Below are positions 2,041-28,635 of a stretch of 64,000 nucleotides of DNA, piece after piece. The stretch is from a virus. Taxonomy: Duplodnaviria; Caudoviricetes. Both the position numbers and the translations under genes were made by a program. The DNA is taken from positions 69,091 to 133,090 of the IMG/VR virus record IMGVR_UViG_2974779332_000001, one strand, 5' to 3'. Every line of letters starts with the position of its first letter. Position 1 is the stretch's first letter. The notes below the pieces were generated by a model that ran no database searches, was not told the origin of the DNA, and saw only the letters and a list, made by a program, of their open reading frames with translations.

Positions 2041-2643
2041 ATGACTGACGTAGATATTGTTTTGATTGTTGACCGCTCTGGTAGTATGGCTACTATCCAG
2101 ATGGAGGCGGAGACAGCAATCAATCAGTTCCTCAAAGACCAGAAGGCCGTTGAGGGCGACGTGTTCGTTACTTTCGTGCAATTCGACAACAAGTATGACC
2201 TGGTATTCGAGAAGGTAAACCTTCCGAACATCCCTAGAGTTCAGATTGAGCCTCGTGGTATGACAGCTCTGCTTGACGCAATCGGTCGAACCGTAGTAAA
2301 CTATGTACCACGAACTGAGAAGACTATCTTCGTCATCATGACTGATGGCCTTGAGAATGCTTCTCAGGAATGGACTAACACTGCGGTGAAGAACCTGATT
2401 GACGAGGAGAAGCAGCACGGAAGTGAGTTTGTCTATCTTGGTGCAAACCAAGATGCGGTGGCAGTAGGTGCTAAGATGGGGATTCCTGTCGCGAGCAGCC
2501 TCACCTTCGCAGCGGACAAGGCAGGACTTGACGCAGTGTCTCGCAGCATGACAAGCTATGTAACAGCGACTCGCTCTGGACTCGCATACGAGTTCACTGA
2601 TGAGGACCGCAAGAACGCCACAGGCTTGACAGACAGCGAGTGA
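2041..2643 (+). CDS. Stand-alone von Willebrand factor A (vWA) domain protein
   Basis: MIDAS motif DRSGSM, T in GMTALLDA, IMTDG, YLGAN. Confidence 0.85.
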   Translation: MTDVDIVLIVDRSGSMATIQMEAETAINQFLKDQKAVEGDVFVTFVQFDNKYDLVFEKVNLPNIPRVQIEPRGMTALLDAIGRTVVNYVPRTEKTIFVIMTDGLENASQEWTNTAVKNLIDEEKQHGSEFVYLGANQDAVAVGAKMGIPVASSLTFAADKAGLDAVSRSMTSYVTATRSGLAYEFTDEDRKNATGLTDSE

Positions 2644-2654
2644 GCTGCTAAAGT
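2626..2654 (+). promoter_or_regulatory. sigma70/HrdB-type promoter; predicted +1 at about 2661, the start of Y-like RNA 1
   Basis: TTGACA-17 nt-TAAAGT. Confidence 0.7.
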
Positions 2655-2660
2655 AGTAAA

Positions 2661-2744
2661 TGTGGGTCGAACGAAGGTTGGTTATCTTTCAAATGGTGAA
2701 TACGCTCCGATAGGGGCTCTCCGACTTTCAAACACTTATCCACA
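2661..2744 (+). ncRNA. Y-RNA-like RNA, copy 1 (short)
   Basis: 5' TGTGGGT(C)GA pairs with 3' TTATCCACA leaving a bulged C; inner stem GAAGGTTGG/CCGACTTTC; GGTTATC motif shared with copies 2 and 3; Ro60 is in the same genome. Confidence 0.7.
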
Positions 2745-2748
2745 AAAT

Positions 2749-2819
2749 GCATCGGTAGTTTAATGGTAGAACGAGAGACTTCCAATCTTTCGGCGCGGGT
2801 TCGATTCCCGCTCGGTGCT
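2749..2819 (+). tRNA. tRNA-Gly(TCC)
   Basis: Cloverleaf; anticodon loop CTTCCAA; T loop TTCGATT. Confidence 0.9.
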
Positions 2820-2824
2820 CTCTA

Positions 2825-2895
2825 TCCCGTATTGTGTAATGGTAGCACAAAGGTCTCTGAAGCCTTTAGTCTTAGTTCGAATCTAGGTGCGGGAG
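2825..2895 (+). tRNA. tRNA-Gln(CTG)
   Basis: Acceptor TCCCGTA/TGCGGGA; loop CTCTGAA. Confidence 0.9.
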
Positions 2896-3064
2896 CTGGT
2901 CCGACTTTACGATATCGGCGGAAATAACTGAATCGGAACTCACATAATAACCATGGTAAAAGTGAGGAATGAGGAAGGGAAATATGCGGGAAGCGATGGG
3001 TAAAACCTCCTCGGACCGACAACGGGGTTTCTGGATGCTCTTTCCCAAGAATAAGATGCACCAT

Positions 3065-3135
3065 ATGTCCTTCGTATAATGGTAGTACAAGAGATTCCAA
3101 ACCTCTTAGCGTGGGTTCGATTCCTACAGGACATG
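3065..3135 (+). tRNA. tRNA-Trp(CCA)
   Basis: ATGTCCT/AGGACAT; loop TTCCAAA. Confidence 0.85.
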
Positions 3136-3340
3136 CTTTGATGAGTCTCGCCTTAGCAGGCATGAACGATAGTGTTCAGCATAAACTATCAAGTAAGCCC
3201 AAGAGACAAACTGAAAGGGGTAACCCATGCTGAGGGTTCCTGATTAAGGAGTAGGGGATAAGGTCCCAAACAGTGTCAAAACCATTTAAAAAACGCCCGG
3301 TATCGAAAAGGTACCGGGCACAATAATATCCGGAGGAAAT

Positions 3341-3784
3341 ATGGGATACTACACAGACTTCACTCTAAGAGCGGAAGGCCGTGGAGCTGTCTATGACAAG
3401 ATGATGAGAGACAGGTCCAAGATTACATTCTCCTATAGCAACTACGACTTTACCCTCGGAGACTGGCTTGACAGAGACTACTCTGAGAACCTAAAGTGGT
3501 ATGAATGGGAGAAGGACATGAAGCAGCTCTCAAAGGAGTGGCCAAACGTCCTATTTATTCTTGATGGAGATGGCGAAGAGACTGGTGACCTCTGGAGAGC
3601 ATGGTTTCGAAATGGTGCCATGTACAAGCTTGAGGCAAAGATTGTTTTCGAGACAATCAAGCCAGATTTGGACAAGCATCTTCCATATGACCATGACCTT
3701 GACAAGCGTCTCGGTGAGCAGTACAAGGAAGAACTCAAAGACGAGATTGCCAGATTGCAGAAGCAGCTTGACTCACTAGACTGA
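3341..3784 (+). CDS. Hypothetical phage protein
   Basis: GGAGG RBS; 147 aa; MGYYTDF...KWYEWE...GEETGDLWR pattern. Confidence 0.7.
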   Translation: MGYYTDFTLRAEGRGAVYDKMMRDRSKITFSYSNYDFTLGDWLDRDYSENLKWYEWEKDMKQLSKEWPNVLFILDGDGEETGDLWRAWFRNGAMYKLEAKIVFETIKPDLDKHLPYDHDLDKRLGEQYKEELKDEIARLQKQLDSLD

Positions 3785-4009
3785 GAGGTGTAGGGTGGCT
3801 CTTACAGGCACAAACGGACAGTGTTGGTTCCAAAGATGTTCTCGCAAGGCGACAACGACAATTCGGTATTACAACAAGTCAGTTGTCGTCTGTAATGGAC
3901 ACAAGAACCTTGATGGTGTAGGCTGTCCTTCAAGTAGGCGGAGACCAAAGAGTTGACACTACTCAGAGGGTCTGCTAAGATTAAGTACAACGGCAGGGAA
4001 ACCTGCTAT

Positions 4010-4081
4010 CAGGCTCGGGGAAGATGGTAATCCGTTGGCTTTGGAAGCCTAAGACACTCGGTTCGATTCCGAGGGGCCTGA
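4010..4081 (+). tRNA. tRNA-Pro(TGG)
   Basis: CAGGCTC/GGGCCTG; loop TTTGGAA; canonical T arm; TTGACA promoter at about 3953. Confidence 0.8.
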
Positions 4082-4212
4082 CCGAACATAGGAGGCATCC
4101 TATGCGTCTTGCGGCGGTGAATGTAGGAACCACAGGTTATGCAGCCAAGGTGGTCAAGGTTCGACTCCTTGCATCGAGCGTACTGGGGCTGATACGATAA
4201 CTCAGCATTTAA

Positions 4213-4287
4213 CGGGATATAGCTCAGCTTGGTCAGAGCGCGCGGTTTGGGACCGTGAAGTCGTCAGTTCGAATCTGACTATCCCGA
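4213..4287 (+). tRNA. tRNA-Pro(TGG), second copy
   Basis: CGGGATA/TATCCCG; loop TTTGGGA. Confidence 0.92.
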
Positions 4288-4290
4288 CAA

Positions 4291-4439
4291 TTTGGGTCGA
4301 AAGAGATACGGTTATCTAACAATGGATAATAGGTTCGATTCCTATCGGTGGGTATAGCCCGCTGTGTAAGGCCATCCGAGATGCGTGTGGTAGGATGGCA
4401 TTGGAACTACACGCTCTCCGTTCTCATCACTTATCCAAA
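4291..4439 (+). ncRNA. Y-RNA-like RNA, copy 2 (long, with T arm)
   Basis: TTTGGGT(C)GA/TTATCCAAA bulged-C stem; GAGATACGG/CCGTTCTC; GGTTATC; T arm TAGGTTCGATTCCTA. Confidence 0.75.
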
Positions 4440-4449
4440 GGATTTAATC

Positions 4450-4971
4450 ATGACGGTACTTCTAAGAACCATTCATGGTTCACACCTTTACGGTCTCGCT
4501 CATGCAGGGTCTGATAAAGACATCTACGAAGTCATTGCGACTAAGCGTACGAAGCGTAAGCGAAACATCAAGCAGACCATTGCAAATGGTGTTGACAAGA
4601 CTACAGTTGACCTGTCAACATTCATGCATATGGTTGACGAATGCGTACCTCAAGCACTTGAAGCGCTATGGACGCCGGTTGCAGAAATTGATGAAATCAA
4701 TTCCTTCCGGACACAATATCGAGTGAATCGCGCCAAGATGAAGGAAGTATACATTCGAACCGCTCTAAACTTCGCCAAGCATGATGATGTAAAGCGTAAG
4801 CGTCACGCTATCCGTTTGCTTCTCAATCTTGGAGCAGCTTTGGAATACGGTAAGTTCAATCCCAGACTATCCAATATGGACAAGTTCATTCTCCGCTCAT
4901 CACTCGGAGAAACGGGAGCTTATGAGGATGTCTTTCTAGGCGTTCTCGATGAAGTGCAAAAGTGGGTCTGA
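4450..4971 (+). CDS. Pol-beta superfamily nucleotidyltransferase (RlaP-like)
   Basis: hGS-x-YG...SDxD motif (HGSHLYGLAHAGSDKD); start moved to ATG 4450 because the upstream in-frame sequence is RNA. Confidence 0.75.
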   Translation: MTVLLRTIHGSHLYGLAHAGSDKDIYEVIATKRTKRKRNIKQTIANGVDKTTVDLSTFMHMVDECVPQALEALWTPVAEIDEINSFRTQYRVNRAKMKEVYIRTALNFAKHDDVKRKRHAIRLLLNLGAALEYGKFNPRLSNMDKFILRSSLGETGAYEDVFLGVLDEVQKWV

Positions 4972-5060
4972 CGGCTCACGCCAATGGGGCGTATACCCTC
5001 ACTCTGATAAAGTGTAGAAAGGTTAATCGGTTACATGTGGGTTCAATTCCCACCGTCCCA
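4968..5060 (+). tRNA. Atypical tRNA-Ile(GAT)-like gene
   Basis: D-like arm ACGCC-AATG-GGCGT; loop CTGATAA in CACT/AGTG; about 20-nt variable region; T arm GTGGGTTCAATTCCCAC; irregular acceptor. Confidence 0.5.
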
Positions 5061-5101
5061 ACTGGCTCTCTGTGGAGAGCATTCCTAGAAACAACAATAA
5101 T

Positions 5102-6919
5102 ATGGTAGATTTCGACAAGAGACATTCCAAAGAGATTGTGAAACGCCCTGACTCAGACCTGGAACCCTCCAGGTCTTTTCGGTCTTCCGAGCAGGGTGTA
5201 TTTTTGCATGTCAAAAAGGGAATGAAGATAACCACTAAGGCCATTCTGGATTGGGTCTACCTGAATGACTATAAAGAGGAGATTGCTAAGGCTAGAACAG
5301 AAGGCAATCTCGAAAAGGCCCGGAAGTTGAAGATAGAGCAAGAGAAGCGTAGTGAACCAAGACGTAAGAGGTTCTACTCTACCCTTGCTGTACTAATTGC
5401 ACTTATTGGTTGGGCCTATGTTACATGGGCCATTGTTCCAATTGTTGTGGTGTTGGTTGTGAGCCTCCTTGCCATGTGGTTTGTAGGTAGCGGCGTCAAG
5501 CCTCAGCAGCTCGTATCAGCAATTACCGGAAAGGAGGAAGAGGAGCTAGACCCAATGGAGCCTTTTCCAATTTCCGATGCACGCAACAGAGACGAGGCTC
5601 AGGAATGCTTGAGGAGAGCCCTTCTTGCTGAGGGAATCACTCCCAGGGTTATCTTGGAACCAACTCGTTACAATTGGGGTTGGGAAATCCCGGTAGTTCT
5701 GAGAAAGGGAACTCCTGATGATGTAATGTCTAAGGCTAAGAAGATGGAGACACTACTAAGACTTCCTACTGATGGAATGCTAGTAGCTGCTACTCGATTC
5801 CGGGCCGAAGTAATTATTCGTCTCATGCAGACCGACCCATTTGCCGACATGAGAAACGAACCAAGGGCTGAACCACTCTCACGTTCAATCAAGAAGAAGT
5901 ACAAGATTGCACAGAGAATGGATGGTCAGTCCCTTGAAATCAGCTTGCTGAGAAATCACGCAGTTGTTATTGCAGCGCCTGGTGGTGGAAAGTCTATGTT
6001 CATGCGTAAGCTAGCAGACATCACCACTAGCTGTAGAGATTGTGTAACCTGGGACATTGACCCTGGTGGCAATGGACTCGAAGTCTTCGGAAGTGCTATC
6101 GCAAGGCGTGGTAGGACAGAAGAGGAAATTGAAGAAATGCTAACCGAGGCTCTAGAGTACACCAAGATTCGTGCAAAGAAGCTGACGAAGCTTCGCATGG
6201 GTGACAACTGGCAGCCAAGCAAGGAACATCCTGCTCTTATCATCTTCATTGATGAGTTTATTCAGCTAAACAAGAAGTGCAAGGAACTGGCCATTGACAT
6301 TATCCGCAATGGACGTAAGTCTGCTATTACTGTTGTGCTAGCTGCGCAGCAGGCTACAAAGGACCAACTTGGTGCCGCCATTGCAGATGCAGTGTCTATC
6401 AAGGTTATGTTTGCTTCTCGTCACGCTGACGTACCTCTAGTATTCGGAGAGGGTATGTTGTCCCAGGGCTGGAGACCTGATAAGCTACATCCAGCATCAG
6501 GTGAGGACGTGGAAGACGCTGGTAAGTGTTACATTTTGGGCGGTGGCTCAAGGGAACCTTATCTATACAAGGTAACTCCAATAGAACCTGATGAGGCTAT
6601 CGAGATGGGTGATGAGCGTGAAGCAGAGGGCATGCCCGAACTTGACAGTGATACCTACCTAGATGTTACAGTTACAGACACAACAGACAAGCGCCTCTTG
6701 GAGGACGTGCTTGACATCTTTGAGAACTTTGACGAGAATGACTGGCTTCCTGCCAGCATCTTGGTCAAGGAACTTAAGGGCTACGGTCACACCTTGACAG
6801 CTCGTCAGTTGCATGAGACTCTAGGAGATACCGGTCGAGAGAGCCGTATTTGGGAAGGGTCCAAGTACAAGGTGGCTGGTTACTTCCGAAAGAACATCGA
6901 AAAGCAATTGGAGAAGTAA
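5102..6919 (+). CDS. FtsK/SpoIIIE-family membrane DNA translocase resembling Streptomyces plasmid TraB
   Basis: Two TM helices; Walker A APGGGKS; Walker B LIIFIDE; GRKSAITVVLAAQ motif; possible C-terminal winged helix. Confidence 0.8.
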   Translation: MVDFDKRHSKEIVKRPDSDLEPSRSFRSSEQGVFLHVKKGMKITTKAILDWVYLNDYKEEIAKARTEGNLEKARKLKIEQEKRSEPRRKRFYSTLAVLIALIGWAYVTWAIVPIVVVLVVSLLAMWFVGSGVKPQQLVSAITGKEEEELDPMEPFPISDARNRDEAQECLRRALLAEGITPRVILEPTRYNWGWEIPVVLRKGTPDDVMSKAKKMETLLRLPTDGMLVAATRFRAEVIIRLMQTDPFADMRNEPRAEPLSRSIKKKYKIAQRMDGQSLEISLLRNHAVVIAAPGGGKSMFMRKLADITTSCRDCVTWDIDPGGNGLEVFGSAIARRGRTEEEIEEMLTEALEYTKIRAKKLTKLRMGDNWQPSKEHPALIIFIDEFIQLNKKCKELAIDIIRNGRKSAITVVLAAQQATKDQLGAAIADAVSIKVMFASRHADVPLVFGEGMLSQGWRPDKLHPASGEDVEDAGKCYILGGGSREPYLYKVTPIEPDEAIEMGDEREAEGMPELDSDTYLDVTVTDTTDKRLLEDVLDIFENFDENDWLPASILVKELKGYGHTLTARQLHETLGDTGRESRIWEGSKYKVAGYFRKNIEKQLEK

Positions 6920-6922
6920 AAC

Positions 6923-7138
6923 ATGTGGACAGCAGGTGTAATTTTCTACCTGGTTGTCTGTGCATATCTCTGTAAGAAGAAGGGCTGGCAGATTCATTAT
7001 CTCGCCTGGGGTGCCGTTGGTGGGCTTCTTCTAGCCACCATCGTTCCTACCCTCCCTGCACAGACAAAGACTACTATGGAAAACACTGCTCAGGTAGTCG
7101 TTTCCATCTTTAACAGCACGGGCATCGGGCAGGGTTGA
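6923..7138 (+). CDS. Small membrane protein following the translocase
   Basis: Two hydrophobic segments; starts 3 nt after the translocase stop. Confidence 0.6.
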   Translation: MWTAGVIFYLVVCAYLCKKKGWQIHYLAWGAVGGLLLATIVPTLPAQTKTTMENTAQVVVSIFNSTGIGQG

Positions 7139-7196
7139 CAGTAGCCCTGCTACGATGTAGCATAGATTTAAACCTAGCCCTTGTGGGGCTAGACGA

Positions 7197-7268
7197 GCGC
7201 CAGTAGCATAACGGTCGATGCAGCAGGCTTATATCCTGACGATAGAAGGTTCAATTCCTTCCTGGCGT
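7197..7268 (+). tRNA. tRNA-Ile(TAT)
   Basis: GCGCCAG/CTGGCGT; loop CTTATAT in CAGG/CCTG; T arm GAAGGTTCAATTCCTTC. Confidence 0.75.
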
Positions 7269-7649
7269 ACGCTATATCACTACAATTAGATGGAGCTAAA
7301 GTGGCTCTTTCCCATCCTGACGGTACTAAAATCGTCATTACCAGGGGCCAGTACAGGAACAAGCAAGGCACAGTTACCGTCGTCGGTAAGATTAAGCTGG
7401 TTGTTCTTGACGATGGCACTGAGCTTATGGCTGTTTCTGACGAAATGGCTCGGAAAGTACAGTGACATGGAAAGCAAGAAGTATCTCTCAGTAGGAGACA
7501 TTGTATTTGTTCTCCAGACTCGTGCGGAGGTTTACGACCTCGTAGATACAAATACTTCACTTCTAAAGGTACGTTTCCTTGAGGGACCGGCCCAAGGTGA
7601 AGTAAGTCTAGTAGTTCTTAAGCAGGTTGAGCGCGACTGAGCGCTCTTT

Positions 7650-7736
7650 GGAGAGTAAGCGATTGGCTAGCGGGCATCCTGGAAAGGTGCTAAGAGGTAT
7701 CCCCTCGGCTGGGTTCGATTCCCAGGCTTTCCTCCA
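7650..7736 (+). tRNA. tRNA-Ser(GGA)
   Basis: Loop CTGGAAA; long variable arm; encoded CCA. Confidence 0.85.
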
Positions 7737-7782
7737 ACTGTTCAATTTTGCATTAGGAATTGAACAGAGATATAATTCTGTC

Positions 7783-8202
7783 ATGAATACATTTAAGACA
7801 GATATTATTCGCCTTCGTGATGAGGGCAAAACGTACGCAGAAATTGTCAGTGAACTTGGATGTTCTAAGGGTACTGTTGCTTACTATTGCGGTGCAGACC
7901 AAAAGGCGAAAATGCTCTCGCGTCAAAGAGACAGAAGGAACAGAGTTCGTAAGTTTCTTCAAGAGCACAAGCAAGCCTCTGGCTGTGTCGATTGTAAGGA
8001 AATGTATCCTTACTGGATTCTTGAGCTTGACCATTGTCGCGGAGAAGCTAAGGTAGGAAATGTATCAGAGATGATAGGTAGCCATAGCTTTGAAGAGATT
8101 ATGAAAGAGGTCGAGAAGTGTGATGTTGTTTGTGCTAATTGCCACAGGCAGCGCACATGGGAACGTATGGTTAAATCCAGTGGAGAGGTTATCCTAGACT
8201 AG
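7783..8202 (+). CDS. HTH-HNH endonuclease (homing-type) in the tRNA region
   Basis: N-terminal HTH (TYAEIVSELGCSKGTVAYY); CVDC...LELDH...CDVVCANCHRQRT. Confidence 0.8.
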   Translation: MNTFKTDIIRLRDEGKTYAEIVSELGCSKGTVAYYCGADQKAKMLSRQRDRRNRVRKFLQEHKQASGCVDCKEMYPYWILELDHCRGEAKVGNVSEMIGSHSFEEIMKEVEKCDVVCANCHRQRTWERMVKSSGEVILD

Positions 8203-8218
8203 ACGCAGGAGGTGCAGA

Positions 8219-8437
8219 ATGATAATCTGTGGTGACACAGTTAAAGTAAAGCACGACCGTCCTAATGTGGACCCCGCCTATTATGGAAAGCGTGGTAGGA
8301 TTCATAAGAGGACTCGTATTCTTGGCGCTCTAGGTGCTGGGCAATACGAAATTATGTTCTTCGAAAGAGAACTCAATCACCCAATCGTGGGTGTTATGGG
8401 TGGCTTCAACGAAGATGACCTGGAAGTCGAACGCTGA
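8219..8437 (+). CDS. Hypothetical small protein (SH3/KOW-like pattern)
   Basis: GGAGG RBS; GDTVKV...GKRGRI. Confidence 0.5.
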   Translation: MIICGDTVKVKHDRPNVDPAYYGKRGRIHKRTRILGALGAGQYEIMFFERELNHPIVGVMGGFNEDDLEVER

Positions 8438-8446
8438 CTTCCCTAT

Positions 8447-8537
8447 GGAAGGTTAAGCCGAGTGAGGACTAACGGCAGCAGTCTTGAAAACTGTTTAGGT
8501 GTAAAAGCCTGTGTGGGTTCGAGCCCCACACCTTCCG
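8447..8537 (+). tRNA. tRNA-Ser(TGA)
   Basis: GGAAGGT/ACCTTCC; loop CTTGAAA; long variable arm. Confidence 0.85.
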
Positions 8538-8749
8538 CATGAGCCTAATTAAAAAGTATAAAGTAGGTGATAGGGTCGTTCTTACTGACGGAGAAGGTGT
8601 TGGTAATGTTGGCGACCTTGGTACAGTCTCACAGGTGAATTGGATTGCCAAGAAGCGATTTTGGTGGTACGGGGTAACTCTCGATAATCCGCCAAAGGGC
8701 AAGGCATCCAGTTACATGTTCAGGGACTATATGATTCGAAAGGCATAAG

Positions 8750-8938
8750 GTGCCCAAGAACAAGGAAGAACTACAACGACAGCTAAACGCTTTCAAGCAG
8801 GAGCTTAAGGATTATGAGGCTAAGCTTGAAAGGGCGAAGCAGACCAATAACAGAGACGACGTGGTGAATTATGCCATGACTGTTGCTGGTCTAAAGAACT
8901 CCATAAAGGAAATCGGCACTCAGTTGAGGTCAATGTGA
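8750..8938 (+). CDS. Hypothetical coiled-coil protein
   Basis: Heptad-rich 62-aa ORF coupled to the next gene. Confidence 0.5.
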   Translation: MPKNKEELQRQLNAFKQELKDYEAKLERAKQTNNRDDVVNYAMTVAGLKNSIKEIGTQLRSM

Positions 8939-9327
8939 GTGCAGTCCTTATAGGAGTTCTTCTTCATTTTGTGGGTGACTATCTAATCCAGACGGATTGG
9001 ATGGCACAACTTAAGACAAAAAGGTGGGCACCTGCCATTGTCCATGGTGTCACATACGGTGTCCCCTTCATATTTGTCACAATGTCACCAATAGCATTGG
9101 CTGTCATCATTGTCACTCACATTGTCATTGACCATTACAGATTGGCCCGGCATGTAGTATGGGCCAAGAATCAGCTAGCTCCAAAGGAATGGCGGTATCC
9201 TTGGAGCGAAGGCAACCTAACAGGCTATAGAAATGATGCACCTGTATGGCTTACCACCTGGCTGATGATTATCGCTGACAATACAATTCACATTGCTATC
9301 AACACTTTAGCCATCCTCTTTCTCTGA
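8935..9327 (+). CDS. DUF3307-like membrane protein
   Basis: HFVGDYLIQ, H...IDH and DNTIH motifs between TM helices. Confidence 0.7.
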   Translation: MSAVLIGVLLHFVGDYLIQTDWMAQLKTKRWAPAIVHGVTYGVPFIFVTMSPIALAVIIVTHIVIDHYRLARHVVWAKNQLAPKEWRYPWSEGNLTGYRNDAPVWLTTWLMIIADNTIHIAINTLAILFL

Positions 9328-9364
9328 GGATGGCTTTTAGTGTTTTTGGTGATAAAATAAATGC

Positions 9365-11320
9365 ATGGCTAATTCAACACCTTTGCTCGGAGCCGGTAAT
9401 GTAACGACTGCCAGCAATTCAAATGCGACATCAATCACCGTTAACAAGCCAGCTAATCTGGCTGACGGTCATTATATGTTTGCGGCTATCCTTCAAAGGA
9501 ATGCGGCTGGTACGTGGACGGTTCCTTCTGGTTGGACTGCCGTAGGGGTAACACAGCAAGACTATGTAGACTGTAAGGTCTACTACAAATACGTACCAAG
9601 CGCGGCAGCGGAGAGCGCCACAAACTACACCTGGACGACCAATAAGACGGCCGAGAGAATTGTAGCAATAGTCTGGCTACAGACGAACACTGATGGCGTT
9701 TCTCCAATTGATGCGCTGGGCACTGGAGTAGCTACAGCACCCAACAGAACAAGCATGAACTTCACCTCTGTTACTGCTGTCAGCTCACATGCCACCTTGA
9801 TTGCTGTAGGATATAGCACAATTGCTGGAGGAGCATCAGCACCAATTGGTTCTACGCCAACTGGTATGACGGAGATTACTAACGTCAATATTGCTAATGC
9901 CACTCCTAATGCATTGGACTTGAAGGTATCTTATCAGATACTTTCTGTTGCTGGCGCAACAGGCACAAGGACTACCAACTTCTCACCGGCCGCTTCTGGT
10001 TCTGGTGGATTCACATTCACTATCAATCCTGTCGGTGACGCACCTCCAACGACTGTTGCCATGAGACAAGGACTTTGTGACAAGGACAAAATCCGTGTCC
10101 TCGCGAGGACAAGTTCCACGTCATCTGTCCGTCTTGCTGTGTCACTGTCCAGTGACATGTCATCTCCTGTGTACTCATCATCAGTGACACCAGACAGTGA
10201 CGGATATTCCAAGCTGACTGTCACTGGATTGTCCAGTGACACGAAGTATTGGTATTGTCTTGAGCTTAATGGTGTCCTCAACACGAGTGTCACTGGAGTT
10301 TCAAGAACCTTCCCAGTGAATGGTTCATTCAGCTTCCTTGCAGCCTCATGTTCATTCACAGCATCCAATCATGCAGTCTTTGATGGGATGAGAACCAGAA
10401 CTGGACCTGATAGCTTGCCAGCAAGATTCTTTGCTCATCTTGGTGATGTGCACTATGAGCATGCTAGCTACAGCTCCAATCCAATCGCTCCAAATGACCC
10501 TGTAGAGCACCGTACGAATTACGAGAATAGTCTGATGACCGCCAGACAGCAGGCGCTTTGGAGAGATATTCCTGTGAGCCATACGTACTCAGATAACGAC
10601 TTCTGCGGAAGCAATTCTGACTCAACGTATGCCGCTCGTCCTGCCATTATCAGTGTGCGTCATCAGATTATGATTGACCCGCCTCTGCCTGACTCTGGAG
10701 GAAATGGTCTTTGGAGAACGTGGGTAGTTGGCCGAGTACGTTTTATACAAACCGACAGCCGTACCTACATGTCTGCAAAGGGGTCTACAGACAACAGCTC
10801 TAAGACTATGCTTGGAGCGGAACAGAAAGCTTGGCTCAAGACACAACTTCTACAGCCAGAGCTTCTTAAGGTATGGTTCCATGACCAAGCATGGGGAGGA
10901 GTAGCAACAAACCCCGGCAACAATGATACTTGGCAAGCATTCAATACTGAAAGAGTAGAGATAGGAAACTTCATCTCTTCTAATCAAGTGAAGGTTGTGT
11001 ATATTCATGGAGACAGCCACAGGCTGTCTGCCGATGATGGAGTATTGAATACAAGAGGAGGCTTTCCAACTATCTCTTGTGCTCCTATGGACCAATCAGC
11101 ACAAGGAGGAGATTCAACAGGTGAAGCTAATTCAGCAGGAGTTTATCCAGCTTATGGTGTTACTCAGCAAGGAAATCATTATGGTTGGTTTGATGTAGAC
11201 GATGATGGTTACCAGCTCTCCTTGATATTCAAGGGATATGACTCAACAGGAACACAAAGGGTAACAATGACAGTTACAGTCAGTCCTACTGTAGCTACTG
11301 GTTGGGGTTATCCTCTCTGA
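9365..11320 (+). CDS. PhoD-family phosphatase fused to an N-terminal Ser/Thr-rich beta domain
   Basis: FN3/PAP-N-like region, then HLGDVHY, DNDF, DSRTY, MLGAEQKAWL, HGDSH. Confidence 0.8.
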   Translation: MANSTPLLGAGNVTTASNSNATSITVNKPANLADGHYMFAAILQRNAAGTWTVPSGWTAVGVTQQDYVDCKVYYKYVPSAAAESATNYTWTTNKTAERIVAIVWLQTNTDGVSPIDALGTGVATAPNRTSMNFTSVTAVSSHATLIAVGYSTIAGGASAPIGSTPTGMTEITNVNIANATPNALDLKVSYQILSVAGATGTRTTNFSPAASGSGGFTFTINPVGDAPPTTVAMRQGLCDKDKIRVLARTSSTSSVRLAVSLSSDMSSPVYSSSVTPDSDGYSKLTVTGLSSDTKYWYCLELNGVLNTSVTGVSRTFPVNGSFSFLAASCSFTASNHAVFDGMRTRTGPDSLPARFFAHLGDVHYEHASYSSNPIAPNDPVEHRTNYENSLMTARQQALWRDIPVSHTYSDNDFCGSNSDSTYAARPAIISVRHQIMIDPPLPDSGGNGLWRTWVVGRVRFIQTDSRTYMSAKGSTDNSSKTMLGAEQKAWLKTQLLQPELLKVWFHDQAWGGVATNPGNNDTWQAFNTERVEIGNFISSNQVKVVYIHGDSHRLSADDGVLNTRGGFPTISCAPMDQSAQGGDSTGEANSAGVYPAYGVTQQGNHYGWFDVDDDGYQLSLIFKGYDSTGTQRVTMTVTVSPTVATGWGYPL

Positions 11321-11427
11321 GTTGACAGCCTCCTTGAGACCATGCTAGTGTGTAGTTACACTAGAAAATATAAAGAAAAAGATAGTTAAAAGAATCCAGA
11401 AACGGATTAGAATAGGATAGTAATTAA

Positions 11428-11715
11428 ATGAGACTCTTTGAACTTCATAGAGACGTTGATTCATCTGGCGTCTCTGGAACAGGAGTCGTTGCGCAGGGTG
11501 TCGAGTTTGACAACCGGCAGTGTTGTATGACATGGTTGACCGAATGGAACTCAGTGGCTGTCTATCCTGACATCACTACCCTTGAAGCCATCCATGGACA
11601 CAACGGCAACACTCGTGTAGTATGGGTTGAAGGCCCGGCAACCGAAAGATATGTCGAAGTAGCTGGTAAGAAGGTTCCTGTCCACACAGTTGACAGGTTC
11701 TCCGAGAACCGCTAG
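11428..11715 (+). CDS. Hypothetical phage protein
   Basis: RDVDSSGVSGTGVVAQGVEF...HGHNGNT motif. Confidence 0.65.
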   Translation: MRLFELHRDVDSSGVSGTGVVAQGVEFDNRQCCMTWLTEWNSVAVYPDITTLEAIHGHNGNTRVVWVEGPATERYVEVAGKKVPVHTVDRFSENR

Positions 11716-11796
11716 AGTAGAACGTAGAGCAGGTCGGCAAGCAGGTAAGTGAGGAACACAGGAGCTTGAACCACAACCCCTCCGCCTAGCTCTCTT

Positions 11797-11872
11797 GCGT
11801 CTGTAGTATAGTCTGGTCTAATGCACCTGATTGTCAATCAGGAAATCGCGGGTTCGAATCCCGTCAGGCGCG
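11797..11872 (+). tRNA. tRNA-Asp(GTC)
   Basis: GCGTCTG/CAGGCGC; loop TTGTCAA. Confidence 0.9.
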
Positions 11873-11877
11873 CACAT

Positions 11878-11950
11878 CCCGGCGTGGTGAACTGGTTTAT
11901 CACACTTGTCTGTCGAACAAGAGTAGAGGGTTCAATTCCCTTCGTCGGGG
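11878..11950 (+). tRNA. tRNA-Asp(GTC), second copy
   Basis: CCCGGCG/CGTCGGG; loop CTGTCGA. Confidence 0.85.
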
Positions 11951-11953
11951 CTT

Positions 11954-12065
11954 TGTGGGTCGAAAGAGTAATCGGTTATCTTCCCTTTGAAATGAGAAAA
12001 TGGTAGGTTCGAATCCTACGTAGGCCAAGGAGCGGCCAACTCCGATTCTCACCAATATATCCACA
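11954..12065 (+). ncRNA. Y-RNA-like RNA, copy 3 (T arm followed by D-like arm)
   Basis: TGTGGGTCGA/TATATCCACA; GAGTAATCGG/CCGATTCTC; GGTTATC; GTAGGTTCGAATCCTAC followed by TAGGCCAAGGAGCGGCC; about 770 nt upstream of Ro60. Confidence 0.75.
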
Positions 12066-12070
12066 CCAGT

Positions 12071-12394
12071 ATGAACACTGATGAGAAGATTGCACGAATT
12101 AAGGAACTCTGGAAAGAGTACACTTATCCTGATGACACAATCCACACACTACAAGACGAGACTCCCGAAGGGGAGTTCAAGCCTGTCTGGGTGGAAACCG
12201 TCGAGGAAGGTGAGTCTCGCTGGATGATTCATACCCTTGAGGTATTTGAAATCGAAGAAGGTGTATACGTAGGTGTACGCTGGGAGCGAGGCAAGACAGA
12301 GATGCAAGAGAATCTATTCGAAGATAACAACGTCTATCGCGTAGACAAGGAGATTGTTCAGCGCGTAGACTGGAGCGCAAAGGAAGCTCTGTGA
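12071..12394 (+). CDS. Hypothetical acidic protein
   Basis: 107-aa ORF overlapping the next start (GTGA). Confidence 0.6.
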   Translation: MNTDEKIARIKELWKEYTYPDDTIHTLQDETPEGEFKPVWVETVEEGESRWMIHTLEVFEIEEGVYVGVRWERGKTEMQENLFEDNNVYRVDKEIVQRVDWSAKEAL

Positions 12395-12804
12395 AGAATT
12401 GGCTCGGGCACGATATTGTTGTTGGAGCAATTGTTTTTCGTGGTGGACGACAGGGCGACAGTTCATCCTTCCGGGTAGGCATTGTGGATGATTTTGATAC
12501 GTCCAAGGCACGCCCGGCAAGGGTTGACTGGAGGTTCGATGCAGGAACCAGACGAATTTGGTTTGGTGAGACTGCATGGGAGAGGCATCCAGATGACTAT
12601 TCAGTTATGGGTCCTCACAAGTCAAGTACACAACGAACACGATACGAAATTAACGATTTGGTACGGCTGGATAATGACCAGCTTGAATACCTAGAACAGC
12701 GTGATAAGCTGTGTACACTTGCCCAACACTACAAGATTCGCAAGGAAGACTTCACTGCATTCGAGCAGGACTTTCTTGCAGGAAATGTCCCTGACATCAA
12801 TTAA
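12391..12804 (+). CDS. Hypothetical protein
   Basis: Coupled ORF; NWLGHDIVVGAIV phage-like N-terminus. Confidence 0.6.
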   Translation: MKNWLGHDIVVGAIVFRGGRQGDSSSFRVGIVDDFDTSKARPARVDWRFDAGTRRIWFGETAWERHPDDYSVMGPHKSSTQRTRYEINDLVRLDNDQLEYLEQRDKLCTLAQHYKIRKEDFTAFEQDFLAGNVPDIN

Positions 12805-12833
12805 TATGCCCAAAAGGGCCGGAAGGAAAAGTA

Positions 12834-14480
12834 ATGTCAAACGCACTTAACAACGCTGCCAAGAGTCTGAACAAGACTCCTCAGTCTCAGAAGGCTAAGG
12901 CAAGTCAGGTCAAGAACAACGCTGGTGGATTCGTCTTCCAGGTTTCTGACCAGGCTCGTCTAGAGCGATTCTTGATTCTGGGTGTCGATGGCGGTACGTA
13001 TTACGTCAGTGAGGTCAATCATGCTATGAGCAATGTTGGCTTCCTCAACGAGATGATTGAGCGAGACGAAGCCTCTGTTCTGCGCACCATTGTAGACGTG
13101 TCTACAAGTGGTCGTGCGTACAAGCAGTCTCCTGCCCTGTATGCTCTAGCCTCTGTTATTGCCAACGGCAAGGACAAGCAGGCAGTTAAGGCAGTATTCA
13201 ATCGTGTCGTTCGTACAGGTACCCACTTGTACGAGGTCATGAACTACCTCACCTCTCTCAAGATTGGTTGGGGTCGTTCAAAGCGAGAGATTGTTGCTTC
13301 TTGGTTCGACAAGGATGCTGACAAGCTGGCTTACCAGGCGGTCAAGTACCGTTCTCGTAAGTTTGGAGAGCAGACCTGGACGCTCCGAGACGTAATGCGT
13401 CTTTCACACCCACGAGATGTGAACACATCTGTTGTGGACTTTGTTCTTGGCAAGTCTCATGATTCTATCGATGACCTTCGGGTTATCGAGGGATTCAAGA
13501 AGATGCAGAGGGCTCAGTCTGTTGACGATGTTCACGCTGTTCTTCGTGAGTACGAGATGCTTTCATGGGAGACAATCCCAACTCAGTTCCTCAAGGATGT
13601 GAGTGTATGGAAGCGAATCTTTGCTAACGGACAACTTCGTGGCCAGGCTCTGGTTCGAAACATCACTCGCCTAGCGCGAATTGGTGCTTTCCAGGACATG
13701 CGCTTTGCTGCTGCTTATGCAGGACAGCTAACGAATCAGGAAATGATTGTACAGACTCGTCTGCACCCAATTAACTTCCTGAACGCTACTGTCGTGTATA
13801 ACGAAGGCCAGATGAAGACCGTAAAGGACCGATATGGCTGGGACCGCGAGCAGCGAGTAAAGGACTGGACAACTGAGAGTGTTATCGTGGATGCCCTCAA
13901 CGAGGGATTCCACAAGGCATTCAAGGCTGTTGAGCCTGCTGGAAAGCGAACGATGCTAGCCATCGACGTTTCAGGTTCTATGAGTGCAAAGGCTAACGGT
14001 CTCGACCTTAGCTGTGCTCAGGTTTCTGGCGCAATGGCAATGACCATCGCTCGTACCGAGCCTGCTCACATCATCCGTGGATTCACGTGTGATGGTTACA
14101 GCTACAGGAACAGTGGTCTTACCAACCTAGGCATTTCTGCAAACACCGACCTTGCTACGGTAATGCGTAAGGTGCAGCGAAGTAACTTTGGTGGCACAGA
14201 CTGTGCGCTTCCTATGGTTTGGGCCAAGGACAACAAGGTTGAGGTTGACACCTTTGTGGTTATCACTGATAACGAGACATGGGCTGGCAACATTCATCCT
14301 TTCCAGGCCCTCAAGGACTACAGGAAGGCTACGGGCATTGACGCTCGTTTGGCTGTTCTTGGTGTTGCGGCAACGCCGTTTACCATTGCAGACCCAAGCG
14401 ACTCAGGCATGATGGATTTCGTTGGCTTTGATAGCAACGCACCTCGTGCGCTCGCAGATTTCTCTGCTGGTCGTATCTGA
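12834..14480 (+). CDS. rsr: Ro60/TROVE-domain RNA-binding protein (Rsr ortholog)
   Basis: NNAGGFVF, LERFLILG..GGTYY, LAYQAVKYR, LRDVMRLSHP, ALVRNI, RLHP; C-terminal vWA DVSGSM, GGTDCALP, TDNETW, GFDS. Confidence 0.95.
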   Translation: MSNALNNAAKSLNKTPQSQKAKASQVKNNAGGFVFQVSDQARLERFLILGVDGGTYYVSEVNHAMSNVGFLNEMIERDEASVLRTIVDVSTSGRAYKQSPALYALASVIANGKDKQAVKAVFNRVVRTGTHLYEVMNYLTSLKIGWGRSKREIVASWFDKDADKLAYQAVKYRSRKFGEQTWTLRDVMRLSHPRDVNTSVVDFVLGKSHDSIDDLRVIEGFKKMQRAQSVDDVHAVLREYEMLSWETIPTQFLKDVSVWKRIFANGQLRGQALVRNITRLARIGAFQDMRFAAAYAGQLTNQEMIVQTRLHPINFLNATVVYNEGQMKTVKDRYGWDREQRVKDWTTESVIVDALNEGFHKAFKAVEPAGKRTMLAIDVSGSMSAKANGLDLSCAQVSGAMAMTIARTEPAHIIRGFTCDGYSYRNSGLTNLGISANTDLATVMRKVQRSNFGGTDCALPMVWAKDNKVEVDTFVVITDNETWAGNIHPFQALKDYRKATGIDARLAVLGVAATPFTIADPSDSGMMDFVGFDSNAPRALADFSAGRI

Positions 14481-18070: not shown

Positions 18071-18145
18071 GCCCTAGTATTGGCCCGGCCTTCTAAGCCA
18101 GAGGCGCATAACGGAAAGATGCAGGTTCGAATCCTGTCTAGGGTA
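18071..18145 (+). tRNA. D-armless tRNA-Arg(TCT)-like gene
   Basis: GCCCTAG/CTAGGGT; loop CTTCTAA in GGC/GCC; no D stem; 21-nt variable region; canonical T arm. Confidence 0.55.
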
Positions 18146-26035: not shown

Positions 26036-26110
26036 GGTGGCTGTATCATAAAAGTAATGTACTAGGCTGTGAACCTAGGTAAGAGGGGGCGGTACCCTCC
26101 AGTCACCCCA
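26036..26110 (+). tRNA. tRNA-His(GTG) with non-canonical T loop
   Basis: G-1; GTGGCTG/CAGTCAC; loop CTGTGAA; T loop GGCGGTA; CCA. Confidence 0.75.
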
Positions 26111-28355: not shown

Positions 28356-28635
28356 GGGAGTGACCGGTTTCGACTGGCGAGGATGACAGTTAGTTTGCAG
28401 CCAGACATTGAGGAGATGTCTCTAAAAAGCCTCAAACCTATAAATGCCAACTCTAACGTTGCATTCGCTCTTGCAGCCTGACGGCTGCTGAGCCGGGCGG
28501 TGACTGCCTTGGAACAGAAAGTCACTCATTGTAAGACCTGGCAAGGATATGCATCGTAGTACCTGCTTGACACATGGCTGTGTATAGACTACTGTGAGAG
28601 ACGTCAGGACGGGGGTTCGATTCCCCCCACTTCCA
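28356..28635 (+). ncRNA. ssrA: tmRNA; tag (A)ANSNVAFALAA
   Basis: GGGAGTG/CACTTCC+A with G3-U70; GGTTTCGAC D loop; ATAAAT-GCC resume context at 28446; tag stop at 28479-28481; T arm GGGGGTTCGATTCCCCC. Confidence 0.93.

What the first reader, a model, noticed from the sequence alone, without database searches (positions are those of the whole stretch)
2661..14480. Phage Ro60 with three dispersed, modular Y-like RNAs sharing a Ro-binding core but carrying different cargo domains
Seen: three elements (2661-2744, 4291-4439, 11954-12065) share the frame GGGT(C)GAA-stem-GGTTATC...CTCCG-stem-TCA..CA..TATCC, with compensatory base changes (TGTGG/CCACA vs TTTGG/CCAAA; GAAGGTTGG/CCGACTTTC vs GAGATACGG/CCGTTCTC vs GAGTAATCGG/CCGATTCTC). 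The interiors differ: two small hairpins (84 nt total), a T arm plus long hairpins (149 nt), and a T arm followed by a D-like arm (112 nt). Copy 1 starts at the predicted +1 of a TTGACA promoter; copies 2 and 3 begin about 3 nt after tRNA-Pro and tRNA-Asp. Known: Ro60 binds a bulged-C helix in Y RNAs, and bacterial YrlA RNAs mimic tRNA and tether Ro60 to effectors such as PNPase. Inference: this phage assembles several distinct Ro60 RNPs, released by tRNA processing, as adaptors or anticodon-nuclease decoys. A multi-Y-RNA repertoire spread through a phage tRNA array is not something I recall being characterised.
Basis: partly seen in the sequence, partly recalled or inferred. Interest (0 to 1): 0.85.

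Follow-up and report, generated by a model that had tools for sequence, protein, structure and literature searches.

The report
Three Y RNAs in phage tRNA operons
This Streptomyces phage carries three unannotated small RNA genes of the known Y-RNA kind, the partners of the Ro60 protein it also encodes, each placed directly against a tRNA gene; it is a sound catch of a known RNA class in an unusual layout, not a new kind of system.

Summary
Window 2661-2744, 4291-4439 and 11954-12065 share a 7-bp closing helix, a bulged C, CGAA, a second helix and GGUUAUC, with different interiors. A covariance model of this core finds exactly these three in the 133-kb genome (67-93 bits; next best 11.6 bits). 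Both helices covary across 66 distinct relatives.

The core carries the printed YrlA hallmarks, GNCGAAN0-1G and YUAY (Chen 2014). The same model hits the region beside Ro60 in mycobacteriophage ET08, where Y RNAs are published. ORF 12834-14480 is a full Ro60.

Each element abuts a tRNA by 2-4 nt, an arrangement conserved in relatives. Element 1 starts 7 nt after a conserved TTGACA-17-TAAAGT promoter.

All 10 Ro60 phage records searched whole hold 2-7 such RNAs. Of 26 model-positive IMG/VR loci, 25 lie in records with Ro60. One complete relative lacks Ro60 yet keeps five intact copies.

Phage Ro60 with two Y-like RNAs is already shown experimentally (phage phiLo, 2025). This is therefore a new member of a known kind. 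The notable details are the embedding in tRNA operons, a pseudoknot in the D-arm position, and an RlaP nucleotidyltransferase gene always following element 2. Binding, expression and function remain untested. This scan has noted multi-copy and Ro60-less Y RNAs before on other DNA.

The parts
2626..2654 (+). Promoter-like site TTGACA-17-TAAAGT with TG before the -10 box; element 1 starts 7 nt downstream
   Evidence: 10 of 12 matches. Conserved upstream of the class A element in 8 of 8 sequences printed (the window and 7 fetched loci, two of which duplicate other rows). The motif TTGACA-N16-18-TANNNT occurs 41 times on the + strand and 8 on the - strand of the genome, against 1.4 +/- 1.2 in shuffles.
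2661..2744 (+). Y-like RNA 1 (class A, 84 nt): Ro-type stem plus two small hairpins, no T arm
   Evidence: R1 67.4 bits. Fold -26.4 kcal/mol, z -3.24. Lies 4 nt upstream of tRNA-Gly in 5 of 5 class A rows tabulated (window and 4 loci).
2749..2896 (+). tRNA-Gly(tcc) and tRNA-Gln(ctg) directly downstream of element 1. RNase P cleavage at tRNA-Gly +1 would leave element 1 with a 4-nt 3' tail.
   Evidence: The processing step is inferred.
3953..3981 (+). Promoter-like site TTGACA-17-TAAGAT upstream of the two tRNA-Pro genes and element 2
4213..4288 (+). tRNA-Pro(tgg) with no encoded CCA. Element 2 starts 3 nt after its discriminator base.
4291..4439 (+). Y-like RNA 2 (class B, 149 nt): Ro-type stem, V hairpin, 5-bp T arm, 7-bp acceptor-like stem, and two crossing helices (a likely H-type pseudoknot) where YrlA has its D arm
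   Evidence: R1 81.8 bits. In 15 homologues, 97.2% of cells pair and 9 pairs change on both sides. The acceptor-like stem has 4 of 6 pairs changed on both sides. Crossing helices S1 and S2 are 100% and 93.3% paired.
4450..4971 (+). RlaP-family (Pol beta) nucleotidyltransferase gene. Its AAGGA ribosome site overlaps the 3' strand of element 2's closing helix.
   Evidence: Pfam PF10127 1.6e-5; phrog_388 5.8e-21. The spacer is 10-13 nt in the 10 homologues whose downstream flank was printed, and all 15 aligned homologues are followed by the gene. The GS...DKD motif is visible.
11690..11718 (+). Promoter-like site TTGACA-17-TAGAGT upstream of tRNA-Asp x2, element 3, two ORFs and Ro60
11797..11951 (+). 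Two tRNA-Asp(gtc) genes. Element 3 starts 3 nt after the discriminator base of the second.
11954..12065 (+). Y-like RNA 3 (class C, 112 nt): Ro-type stem, short V hairpin, 5-bp T arm, a 3-nt linker and a 4-bp D-like hairpin (loop AAGGAGC). It resembles a tRNA elbow without an acceptor stem.
   Evidence: R1 92.9 bits. The T stem (GUAGG/GCAGG/AUAGG) and the D-like stem (GGCC/GGCC versus GCCC/GGGC) change on both sides among 5 homologues.
12071..12804 (+). Two conserved ORFs of unknown function between element 3 and Ro60
   Evidence: phrog_13073 2.6e-44 and phrog_2596 1.9e-29. No Pfam family.
12834..14480 (+). Ro60 orthologue (TROVE ring plus vWA domain), 548 aa
14485..14502 (+). Terminator-like hairpin GCCCCUCUUCGGAGGGGC followed by a U-rich tract, closing the element 3-Ro60 unit

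Best explanation
The three elements are genes for Y RNAs, the small non-coding RNAs that partner Ro60. They belong to the bacterial and phage YrlA/Yrl lineage.

Shown from sequence:
- Each has a conserved, covarying closing helix with a bulged C, a G.U pair and a CGAA internal loop, then a second helix and UUAUC.
- Each carries a different distal module. Element 1 has plain hairpins. Element 2 has a T arm, a 7-bp acceptor-like stem and a pseudoknot. Element 3 has a T arm and a D-like arm.

Inferred:
- They are transcribed from sigma-70-type phage promoters as parts of tRNA-containing polycistrons.
- Element 3 sits in the same unit as Ro60.
- They are freed by host tRNA-processing enzymes. RNase P would cut at the 5' end of tRNA-Gly, forming element 1's 3' end. 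RNase Z-type cleavage after the discriminator base of tRNA-Pro and tRNA-Asp would form the 5' ends of elements 2 and 3.

By analogy with Xenopus, Deinococcus and Thermus phage phiLo:
- The conserved stem binds the outer face of the phage Ro60 ring.
- The distal modules gate the ring or tether it to other factors such as host PNPase or tRNA-binding enzymes.
- One Ro60 would thus form several different RNPs while the phage expresses about 40 tRNAs.
For: Specificity: R1 finds only these 3 sites in 133 kb.

Structure: in 66 distinct hits from 35 sources, P1 is 97% paired and P2 85%. Fourteen of 15 pairs change on both sides. Slid controls give 34-46% paired.

Invariant positions across the 66: C9 and G10 in 66 of 66, UUAUC in 62-66 of 66, and U before the P1 3' strand in 62 of 66.

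Family hallmarks: the printed YrlA hallmarks GNCGAAN0-1G and YUAY (PMC4201824, sections 5-6 read) are present in 3 of 3 elements.

Link to known members:
- R1 hits the site just upstream of Ro60 in ET08 (L054:1501-1642). This is the phage whose YrlA is shown in Chen 2014, and Rfam YrlA also hits there at 37.4 bits.
- A paralogue class with the same core in close relatives (L002:4439-4583) has a full V-T-AS-D layout. It scores 39.8 bits, E 3e-5, on Rfam YrlA.

Co-occurrence with Ro60:
- All 10 of 10 Ro60 phage records searched whole have 2-7 hits.
- Of 118 IMG/VR loci holding the 15-base pattern, 26 have R1 hits, and 25 of those lie in records with Ro60.
- Of the 92 loci without R1 hits, only 1 holds Ro60 within the fetched locus.

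tRNA abutment of 1-4 nt holds in 18 of 23 elements tabulated in relatives.

Experimental precedent: phiLo Ro60 binds two phage-encoded CGAA-motif Y-like RNAs and host PNPase (PMC12135203; abstract and passages read).
Against: There is no expression or binding evidence for this phage. No RNA run was found.

The curated models give nothing. Rfam YrlA (RF02553) and Y_RNA do not hit the three elements, even at E<=10 on short stretches.

Elements 1 and 2 lie 10.1 and 8.4 kb from Ro60, outside the 4-kb rule used to define phage YrlAs in print.

Elements 2 and 3 end 10 and 5 nt before start codons, and no processing site is evident at their 3' ends. They could remain as mRNA leaders.

One complete relative (G007, 125.7 kb) lacks Ro60 and TROVE altogether, through a 3.6-kb difference from Belfort, yet keeps five intact copies. 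The RNAs are therefore not strictly tied to a phage-encoded Ro60.

Alignment A3 was fitted to the model, which inflates pairing percentages.
Confidence: 0.8

Rival explanations
1. The elements are Y-RNA-like in form but act without phage Ro60. They would work through host Rsr or other host tRNA-binding proteins, for example as tRNA mimics or decoys. Their linkage to Ro60 would be historical.
For: The complete Ro60-less relative G007 keeps 5 copies with intact cores, scoring 27-54 bits. That is as good as Belfort's 23-44 bits. Earlier notes of this scan report YrlA-like RNAs in Ro60-less phages (unchecked).
Against: 25 of 26 model-positive IMG/VR loci lie in records with Ro60. The part best conserved across all classes is the Ro-type stem, not the tRNA-like module. 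Element 3 is in the same promoter-to-terminator unit as Ro60. The age of the G007 deletion is unknown.
Confidence: 0.1
2. The elements are cis-acting structures of the polycistronic transcripts. They would be processing or stability signals for the neighbouring tRNAs, or leaders that control translation of the next ORF. On this view they are not free-standing RNAs.
For: Elements 2 and 3 end 10 and 5 nt before start codons. The AAGGA site of the nucleotidyltransferase overlaps element 2's closing helix, and this is conserved in the 10 homologues whose downstream flank was printed.
Against: Element 1 is followed by a tRNA, not an ORF. In other phages the same RNAs stand in tandem arrays of 4-6 with no ORFs between them. 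The conserved motifs are those of Ro60 ligands.
Confidence: 0.06
3. The elements are decayed or rearranged tRNA genes, or a repeated mobile sequence, and have no function of their own.
For: They lie in a tRNA array. Two of the three hold a tRNA-type T arm. The tRNA model aligns weakly to element 3 at 14 bits.
Against: Element 1 has no tRNA part. The non-tRNA stems are the most conserved part, and they covary across phages of at least five host genera. Each class keeps its position next to the same tRNA across relatives whose Ro60 is 78-93% identical.
Confidence: 0.02

Closest known systems
YrlA and YrlB of Salmonella Typhimurium and Mycobacterium smegmatis, and the YrlA RNAs reported in 22 phages including mycobacteriophage ET08 (Chen et al. 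2014, PMC4201824; Rfam RF02553)
   Same: The GNCGAAN0-1G motif sits near the 5' end, and YUAY opens the V hairpin. Elements 2 and 3 have a T arm. They lie on the same strand as Ro60, and there are several per genome. Element 2 is 149 nt with a 7-bp acceptor-like stem, like M. smegmatis YrlA (about 147 nt, 7-bp stem, cleaved by RNase P). My core model also hits the ET08 site beside Ro60.
   Different: Rfam's model does not detect any of the three. Both strands of the Ro-type helix are conserved, whereas the paper says only the 5' strand is recognisable in Salmonella and M. smegmatis. Element 2 has two crossing helices instead of a canonical D arm. Element 3 lacks the acceptor-like stem. Element 1 has no tRNA-like part. 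Two of the three lie 8-10 kb from Ro60, and all three abut tRNA genes.
Yrl1 and Yrl2 of Thermus phage phiLo with phiRo60 (NAR 2025, PMC12135203)
   Same: A phage-encoded Ro60 has more than one phage-encoded Y-like RNA upstream. Each has a 5'-3' stem flanking an internal loop with CGAA. That paper shows binding to the phage Ro60 and to host PNPase.
   Different: The phiLo RNAs lie side by side next to the gene. Here they are spread among tRNA genes and have tRNA-like modules. The phiLo Ro60 is too distant to appear in my PDB sequence search. Nothing has been tested for the present phage.
Deinococcus radiodurans Yrn1/Yrn2 and the Ro60-Y RNA-PNPase machine (RYPER), as described in PMC4201824
   Same: Both strands of the Ro-binding helix are retained, and the distal domain has a T arm. 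This is the model for the tether and gate function.
   Different: Yrn1 has a different order of tRNA-like parts. It is a cellular, stress-induced locus and is not embedded in tRNA operons.
Metazoan Y RNAs (Rfam RF00019)
   Same: The architecture matches: a terminal helix with a bulged C followed by G.U and A-U pairs, then a variable distal module. The resemblance of the metazoan helix to GNCGAA is stated in PMC4201824; its further details are recalled.
   Different: There was no hit to the Rfam Y_RNA model. There is no Pol III transcription or oligo-U/La tail. The phage RNAs carry tRNA-like parts.

Membership tests
Bacterial/phage YrlA-type Y RNA (Chen et al. 2014) | GNCGAAN0-1G motif near the 5' end | tested here: met
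   GUCGAACG, GUCGAAAG and GUCGAAAG in elements 1-3. C and G are invariant in 66 of 66 distinct relatives.
Bacterial/phage YrlA-type Y RNA (Chen et al. 2014) | Conserved YUAY that begins the V loop | tested here: met
   UUAU within GGUUAUC in 3 of 3 elements. The UUAUC positions are kept in 62-66 of 66 relatives.
Bacterial/phage YrlA-type Y RNA (Chen et al. 2014) | tRNA-like domain: T arm, acceptor-like (AS) stem and D arm, in that order | tested here: not met
   The full set is absent in all three. Element 1 has none of the parts. Element 2 has the T arm and a 7-bp AS stem but crossing helices instead of a D arm. Element 3 has the T arm and a D-like hairpin but no AS stem. A paralogue in close relatives (L002:4439-4583) does have the full set. 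The paper itself accepts Y RNAs without the full domain, such as YrlB.
Bacterial/phage YrlA-type Y RNA (Chen et al. 2014) | Encoded within 4 kb of Ro60 on the same strand | tested here: inconclusive
   All three are on the Ro60 strand. Element 3 ends 769 nt upstream. Elements 2 and 1 end 8.4 and 10.1 kb upstream, outside the paper's search rule.
Bacterial/phage YrlA-type Y RNA (Chen et al. 2014) | Score at or above the Rfam RF02553 gathering cut-off (69 bits) | tested here: not met
   None of the three elements is hit. The only YrlA row in the region is a 23-bit match across two adjacent tRNAs. The hit beside ET08 Ro60, where the published phage YrlA presumably lies, reaches only 37.4 bits, so the cut-off seems too strict for phage members.
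Bacterial/phage YrlA-type Y RNA (Chen et al. 2014) | Bound by Ro60/Rsr in vivo or in vitro | not testable with these tools
   No RNA-protein predictor was on hand and no RNA run was found.
Phage Yrl RNAs (phiLo Yrl1/Yrl2, PMC12135203) | 5'-3' stem flanking an internal loop with CGAA, encoded upstream of a phage Ro60 gene | tested here: met
   P1, the CGAA loop and P2 are present in 3 of 3 elements, all upstream of Ro60.
Metazoan Y RNA (RF00019) | Match to the family model; Pol III gene with an oligo-U tail | tested here: not met
   No RF00019 hit at the gathering cut-off or at E<=10. The helix with a bulged C is similar in form only.
Ro60 / Rsr protein | TROVE HEAT-repeat ring plus C-terminal vWA domain, full length | tested here: met
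   PF05731 1.8e-32 and PF25045 1.6e-59. End-to-end matches to 2NVO (4.5e-98) and 1YVP (4e-79).
RlaP nucleotidyltransferase (PF10127) | Pfam match above the cut-off and the Pol beta GS...DxD motif | tested here: met
   25.2 bits against a cut-off of 23, covering only profile positions 19-120 of 249. GS and DKD are visible. The protein is 173 aa, so the C-terminal part of the family profile is unmatched. No PDB relative by sequence.

The most novel reading that the evidence does not exclude
Y-like RNAs may be a built-in, processing-coupled component of the tRNA operons of large actinophages. On this reading they form a diversified adaptor set, with plain, T+D-elbow, acceptor-stem+pseudoknot and full tRNA-like modules. 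The set would let one Ro60 ring, phage-encoded or the host's, be coupled to different partners such as PNPase, RNase P, the CCA enzyme, or the RlaP 3'-nucleotidyltransferase whose gene always follows class B. The purpose would be to survey, trim or repair the phage's own tRNA pool under attack by host tRNA-targeting defences. This would explain why the RNAs persist in a relative that has lost its own Ro60.
Probability: 0.15. Interest if true: 0.7.

Novelty: new member of a known kind. Interest (0 to 1): 0.4.

Why it matters
Ro60 and Y RNAs are best known as human autoantigens, and their functions are still worked out mostly in a few bacteria. This analysis gives a covariance model that finds 2-7 Y-like RNAs in every one of 10 Ro60-encoding actinophage records searched. 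In 30 of 30 listed GenBank rows the class B site carries no annotation.

It also shows that in Stanwilliamsviridae these RNAs are interleaved with tRNA genes, so tRNA-processing enzymes would release them. That gives cheap, genetically tractable systems: SEA-PHAGES isolates on Streptomyces or M. smegmatis, plus a natural Ro60-less relative. They could be used to ask what different Y-RNA modules do and whether they need Ro60.

It does not change the picture of what Y RNAs are.

Tried and rejected
- Rfam at the gathering cut-off and at E<=10 on 12 kb and on the single elements gave no YrlA or Y_RNA hit on the elements. The single YrlA row (2760-2872, 23 bits) spans two adjacent tRNAs, the false-positive type that Chen 2014 warns of.
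- My first closure finders mis-set the 3' end of class B. This was corrected by pattern search and by the model.
- The nine-base motif alone is not enriched: 14 matches with up to 1 mismatch against 13.9 expected. The promoter scan as a whole is not above shuffles: 20 against 14.4 +/- 3.6. Only the exact TTGACA-N16-18-TANNNT form is enriched.
- Sequencing runs: no RNA holder was listed. I laid no reads.
- The genome-contig scan with Ro60 returned one locus only, so host Y RNAs and host Rsr were not examined.
- No RtcB (PF01139) or Rnl2-type ligase (PF09414) is in the genome, so this is not a complete RNA-repair cassette.
- The nucleotidyltransferase has no PDB relative by sequence and was not found in the short loci of other phage groups.
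- The reviews PMC10870794 and PMC6047535 are not held.
- Supplementary Tables S1/S2 of Chen 2014 could not be seen. They may list which phage RNAs were already reported.
- Literature searches found no paper on Y RNAs of Streptomyces phages. The BE2 announcement names the Ro-like protein but no Y RNA (passages read).

Full report
**Where the window lies**

The window is bases 69091-133090 of a complete 133,090-bp phage genome with terminal repeats. Its nearest relatives in the phage collection are Streptomyces phages of Stanwilliamsviridae (Samistivirus, cluster BE). Bmoc is 82% identical over the Ro60 region. The window holds 39 tRNA calls and a tmRNA, all on the + strand.

**The observation**

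Each has:
- a 7-bp closing helix P1 (UGUGGGU/AUCCACA; UUUGGGU/AUCCAAA in element 2);
- a C left unpaired, then GAA;
- one variable base;
- a second helix P2 of 8-9 pairs, whose sequence differs between the copies but stays complementary;
- GGUUAUC, then a variable interior;
- CUCCG on the way back.

Folding alone is only suggestive, with z-scores of -3.2, -2.0 and -1.4. The stronger evidence comes from relatives.

I built a covariance model of the core (R1) from 17 copies in this phage and 8 related IMG/VR loci. In the whole genome, both strands, it finds exactly the three elements at E<=1. With all filters off they score 92.8, 81.8 and 67.3 bits, and the next best match in the window scores 11.6 bits.

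**Covariation**

I took 105 hits from 35 sources, of which 66 were distinct. They come from phages of Streptomyces, Mycobacterium, Rhodococcus and Microbacterium.
- P1 is 97% paired and P2 85% paired.
- 14 of 15 pairs show changes on both sides.
- Sliding the partner by 1-3 columns drops pairing to 34-46%.

That alignment was fitted to the model, which favours the structure. The MAFFT alignment used to build the model gave the same direction: 87% paired, and P1 with 4 of 7 pairs changed on both sides.

Across the 66 sequences the following are invariant or nearly so:
- the bulged C and the following G, 66 of 66;
- UUAUC, 62-66 of 66;
- a U just before the 3' strand of P1, 62 of 66, which can pair with that G.

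**What they are**

ORF 12834-14480 is a full-length Ro60. It has a TROVE ring and a Ro60-type vWA domain. It matches D. radiodurans Rsr and Xenopus Ro60 end to end.

The RNA core carries the two sequence hallmarks that Chen et al. 2014 give for bacterial YrlA-type Y RNAs. These are GNCGAAN0-1G near the 5' end and a YUAY that opens the V hairpin (PMC4201824, sections 5, 6, 8 and 10 read).

Rfam's YrlA model does not detect the three elements. It does, however, give sub-threshold but significant hits inside other R1 hits (gathering score 69 bits):
- the site just upstream of Ro60 in mycobacteriophage ET08, at 37.4 bits. ET08 is a phage whose YrlA is shown in that paper;
- a fourth paralogue class (E) in close relatives, L002:4452-4570, at 39.8 bits, E 3e-5.

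Class E shares the core and has a textbook V hairpin, T arm, 7-bp acceptor-like stem and D arm. The three elements are therefore homologous in their protein-binding stem to accepted phage Y RNAs.

**The interiors**

- *Element 1* has only a V-type hairpin and one short hairpin. It has no tRNA-like part.
- *Element 2* was analysed in 15 homologues (alignment A4). It has a 4-bp V hairpin, a 5-bp T arm with a UUCGAUU loop, and an acceptor-like stem whose 6 counted pairs include 4 changed on both sides. Where YrlA has its D arm, it has two helices that cross each other. S1 is 7 bp and 100% paired. S2 is 8 bp and 93% paired. Each has pairs changed on both sides, so an H-type pseudoknot or two alternative folds are likely. 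The sequences are closely related, so this support is shallow.
- *Element 3* has a T arm, a 3-nt linker and a 4-bp hairpin with loop AAGGAGC. This resembles a D arm: class E has GCUC-AAUGGCA-GAGC. Both stems change on both sides among five homologues. It reads as a tRNA elbow with the acceptor stem left out.

**Setting and likely biogenesis**

Element 1 starts 7 nt after the -10 box of TTGACA-17-TAAAGT. That promoter is conserved upstream of the class A element in 8 of 8 sequences printed. The form TTGACA-N16-18-TANNNT occurs 41 times on the + strand and 8 times on the - strand of the genome, against about 1.4 expected, so it is a real promoter class.

Element 1 ends 4 nt before tRNA-Gly. Elements 2 and 3 start 3 nt after the discriminator base of tRNA-Pro and tRNA-Asp, neither of which encodes CCA. 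Relatives keep the same arrangement:
- class A lies 4 nt before tRNA-Gly in 5 of 5 rows tabulated;
- class B lies 2 nt after tRNA-Pro in 5 of 7;
- class C lies 2 nt after tRNA-Asp in 4 of 5;
- class E lies 1 nt after tRNA-Ile in 2 of 2.

I infer that RNase P and RNase Z-type cleavage release these ends.

A promoter at 11690 and a terminator at 14485 bracket tRNA-Asp x2, element 3, two small ORFs and Ro60. Element 3 and Ro60 are therefore probably co-transcribed.

The 3' ends of elements 2 and 3 lie 10 and 5 nt before start codons. How these ends form, or whether they form at all, is open.

**Spread among other phages**

- All 10 Ro60-encoding phage records that I searched whole have several R1 hits: Karimac 4, Yaboi 4, Coruscant 3, Belfort 7, TunaTartare 6, Trina 6, FuzzBuster 2, ET08 3, Big4 7 and Myrna 6.
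- In many of them the RNAs form tandem arrays right upstream of Ro60.
- In ET08 and Myrna some lie in the tRNA array about 35 kb from Ro60.
R1 hits 26 of them.
- Of those 26, 18 hold Ro60 in the fetched locus. One lies on the same contig as another locus that holds Ro60. Six more have Ro60 elsewhere in the record. One does not.
- Of the 92 loci without an R1 hit, only one holds Ro60 within the fetched locus. It has weak Y-like hits at E 0.003-0.04.

**The exception**

G007 is a complete 125.7-kb genome collinear with Belfort at 75-80% identity. It has no match to Ro60 or to Pfam TROVE. Relative to Belfort it lacks about 3.6 kb covering Ro60 and the next gene. It still has five R1 hits with intact cores, interleaved with tRNAs.

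Either the loss is recent, or these RNAs can work with a host Ro60 or without one. It lowers my confidence that the RNAs depend strictly on the phage protein. It does not lower my confidence that they are Y RNAs.

**What is known**

Chen et al. 2014 reported 355 putative YrlAs in 254 bacteria and 22 phages, counting only those within 4 kb of Ro60. I could not see their supplementary tables.

A 2025 paper showed that the Ro60 of Thermus phage phiLo binds two phage-encoded CGAA-motif Y-like RNAs and forms complexes with host PNPase (PMC12135203; abstract and passages read).

My searches found no paper on Y RNAs in Streptomyces phages. The class B site is unannotated in 30 of 30 listed records out of 81 that hold it, and Bmoc shows plain gaps at all three sites.

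Earlier notes of this scan record tandem sets of 3-5 Y RNAs beside bacterial Ro60 genes, and YrlA-like RNAs in Ro60-less phages, one of them inside a tRNA array. I did not check those notes.

**A linked gene**

The ORF that follows element 2 (4450-4971) is a short Pol-beta nucleotidyltransferase. It matches Pfam RlaP just above the cut-off, and phrog_388. Its ribosome site overlaps element 2's closing helix. The pairing is kept in all 15 class B homologues.

A 2025 preprint reports that RlaP enzymes add one or two nucleotides to damaged RNA 3' ends and help restore repaired tRNAs (10.64898/2025.12.29.696909; abstract read). The phage has no RtcB or Rnl2-type ligase. Any functional link between this enzyme and the Y RNA is conjecture.

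**Verdict**

The elements are Y RNAs of the YrlA/Yrl lineage and most likely partners of the phage Ro60 (confidence 0.8). They are new, unannotated members of a known class. The worthwhile details are the tRNA-operon embedding, the variant tRNA-like modules, the conserved RlaP neighbour and a natural Ro60-less relative. Function beyond analogy is unknown.

Noticed in passing
L051:1017-1149 and L051:1236-1339 (Mycobacterium phage Myrna, record about 94668-94990): Two Y-core hits have interiors that match the Rfam tRNA model over positions 5-66 and 7-64 in normal order (D arm, anticodon arm, T arm; or anticodon arm and T arm) without an acceptor stem. This is a Y stem carrying a tRNA body, inside the tRNA array about 36 kb from Ro60.
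   Followed up: partly
L049:1501-1607 (Mycobacterium phage ET08, record 93417-93523): A Y-like RNA is wedged between two tRNA genes, 35 kb from Ro60. This is outside the 4-kb rule of the 2014 survey.
   Followed up: partly
G007:C1:65810-67022 and 92172-92263 (L191): A complete 125.7-kb relative of phage Belfort has five intact Y-like RNAs but no Ro60/TROVE gene. About 3.6 kb present in Belfort is missing.
   Followed up: partly
L002:4439-4583, L007:4377-4521, L009:4187-4331; window 7271-7649: Close relatives carry a fourth, canonical YrlA (class E) 1 nt after tRNA-Ile(tat). In this phage the same slot between tRNA-Ile and tRNA-Ser holds ORF 7290-7640 instead, a cassette-like replacement.
   Followed up: partly
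whole genome, + strand; window 1366-52234: There are 41 copies of TTGACA-N16-18-TANNNT on the + strand against 8 on the - strand and about 1.4 expected. They are concentrated in the tRNA-rich half of the genome.
   Followed up: partly
window 4985-5061, 18071-18145, 26037-26107, 30631-30701: These are weak or odd tRNA-like calls. Two Rfam tRNA hits score about 31 bits and one scores 40 bits, and ARAGORN lists none of the three. There is also an ARAGORN 'tRNA-???' with a two-base anticodon. Bmoc annotates a tRNA-Ile between the same two flanking genes as the first.
   Followed up: no
window 2041-2643: A 200-aa protein with only a weak vWA domain match (phrog_7371) lies just upstream of element 1's promoter. 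Ro60 also ends in a vWA domain.
   Followed up: no
window 9365-11320: A 651-aa PhoD-like phosphodiesterase/hydrolase lies inside the tRNA region.
   Followed up: no
L043 (Rhodococcus phage Trina, record 84277-87130): The record annotates a 209-nt pseudo 'tRNA-OTHER' over part of the Y-RNA array upstream of Ro60. A band-7-like membrane protein gene follows Ro60.
   Followed up: no
L021:944-1101 (Streptomyces phage TunaTartare): A sub-threshold match to the manA RNA motif (45.6 bits, gathering score 55.2) lies among the tRNAs and Y-like RNAs.
   Followed up: no
window 28356-28638: A phage tmRNA with tag peptide ANSNVAFALAA.
   Followed up: no
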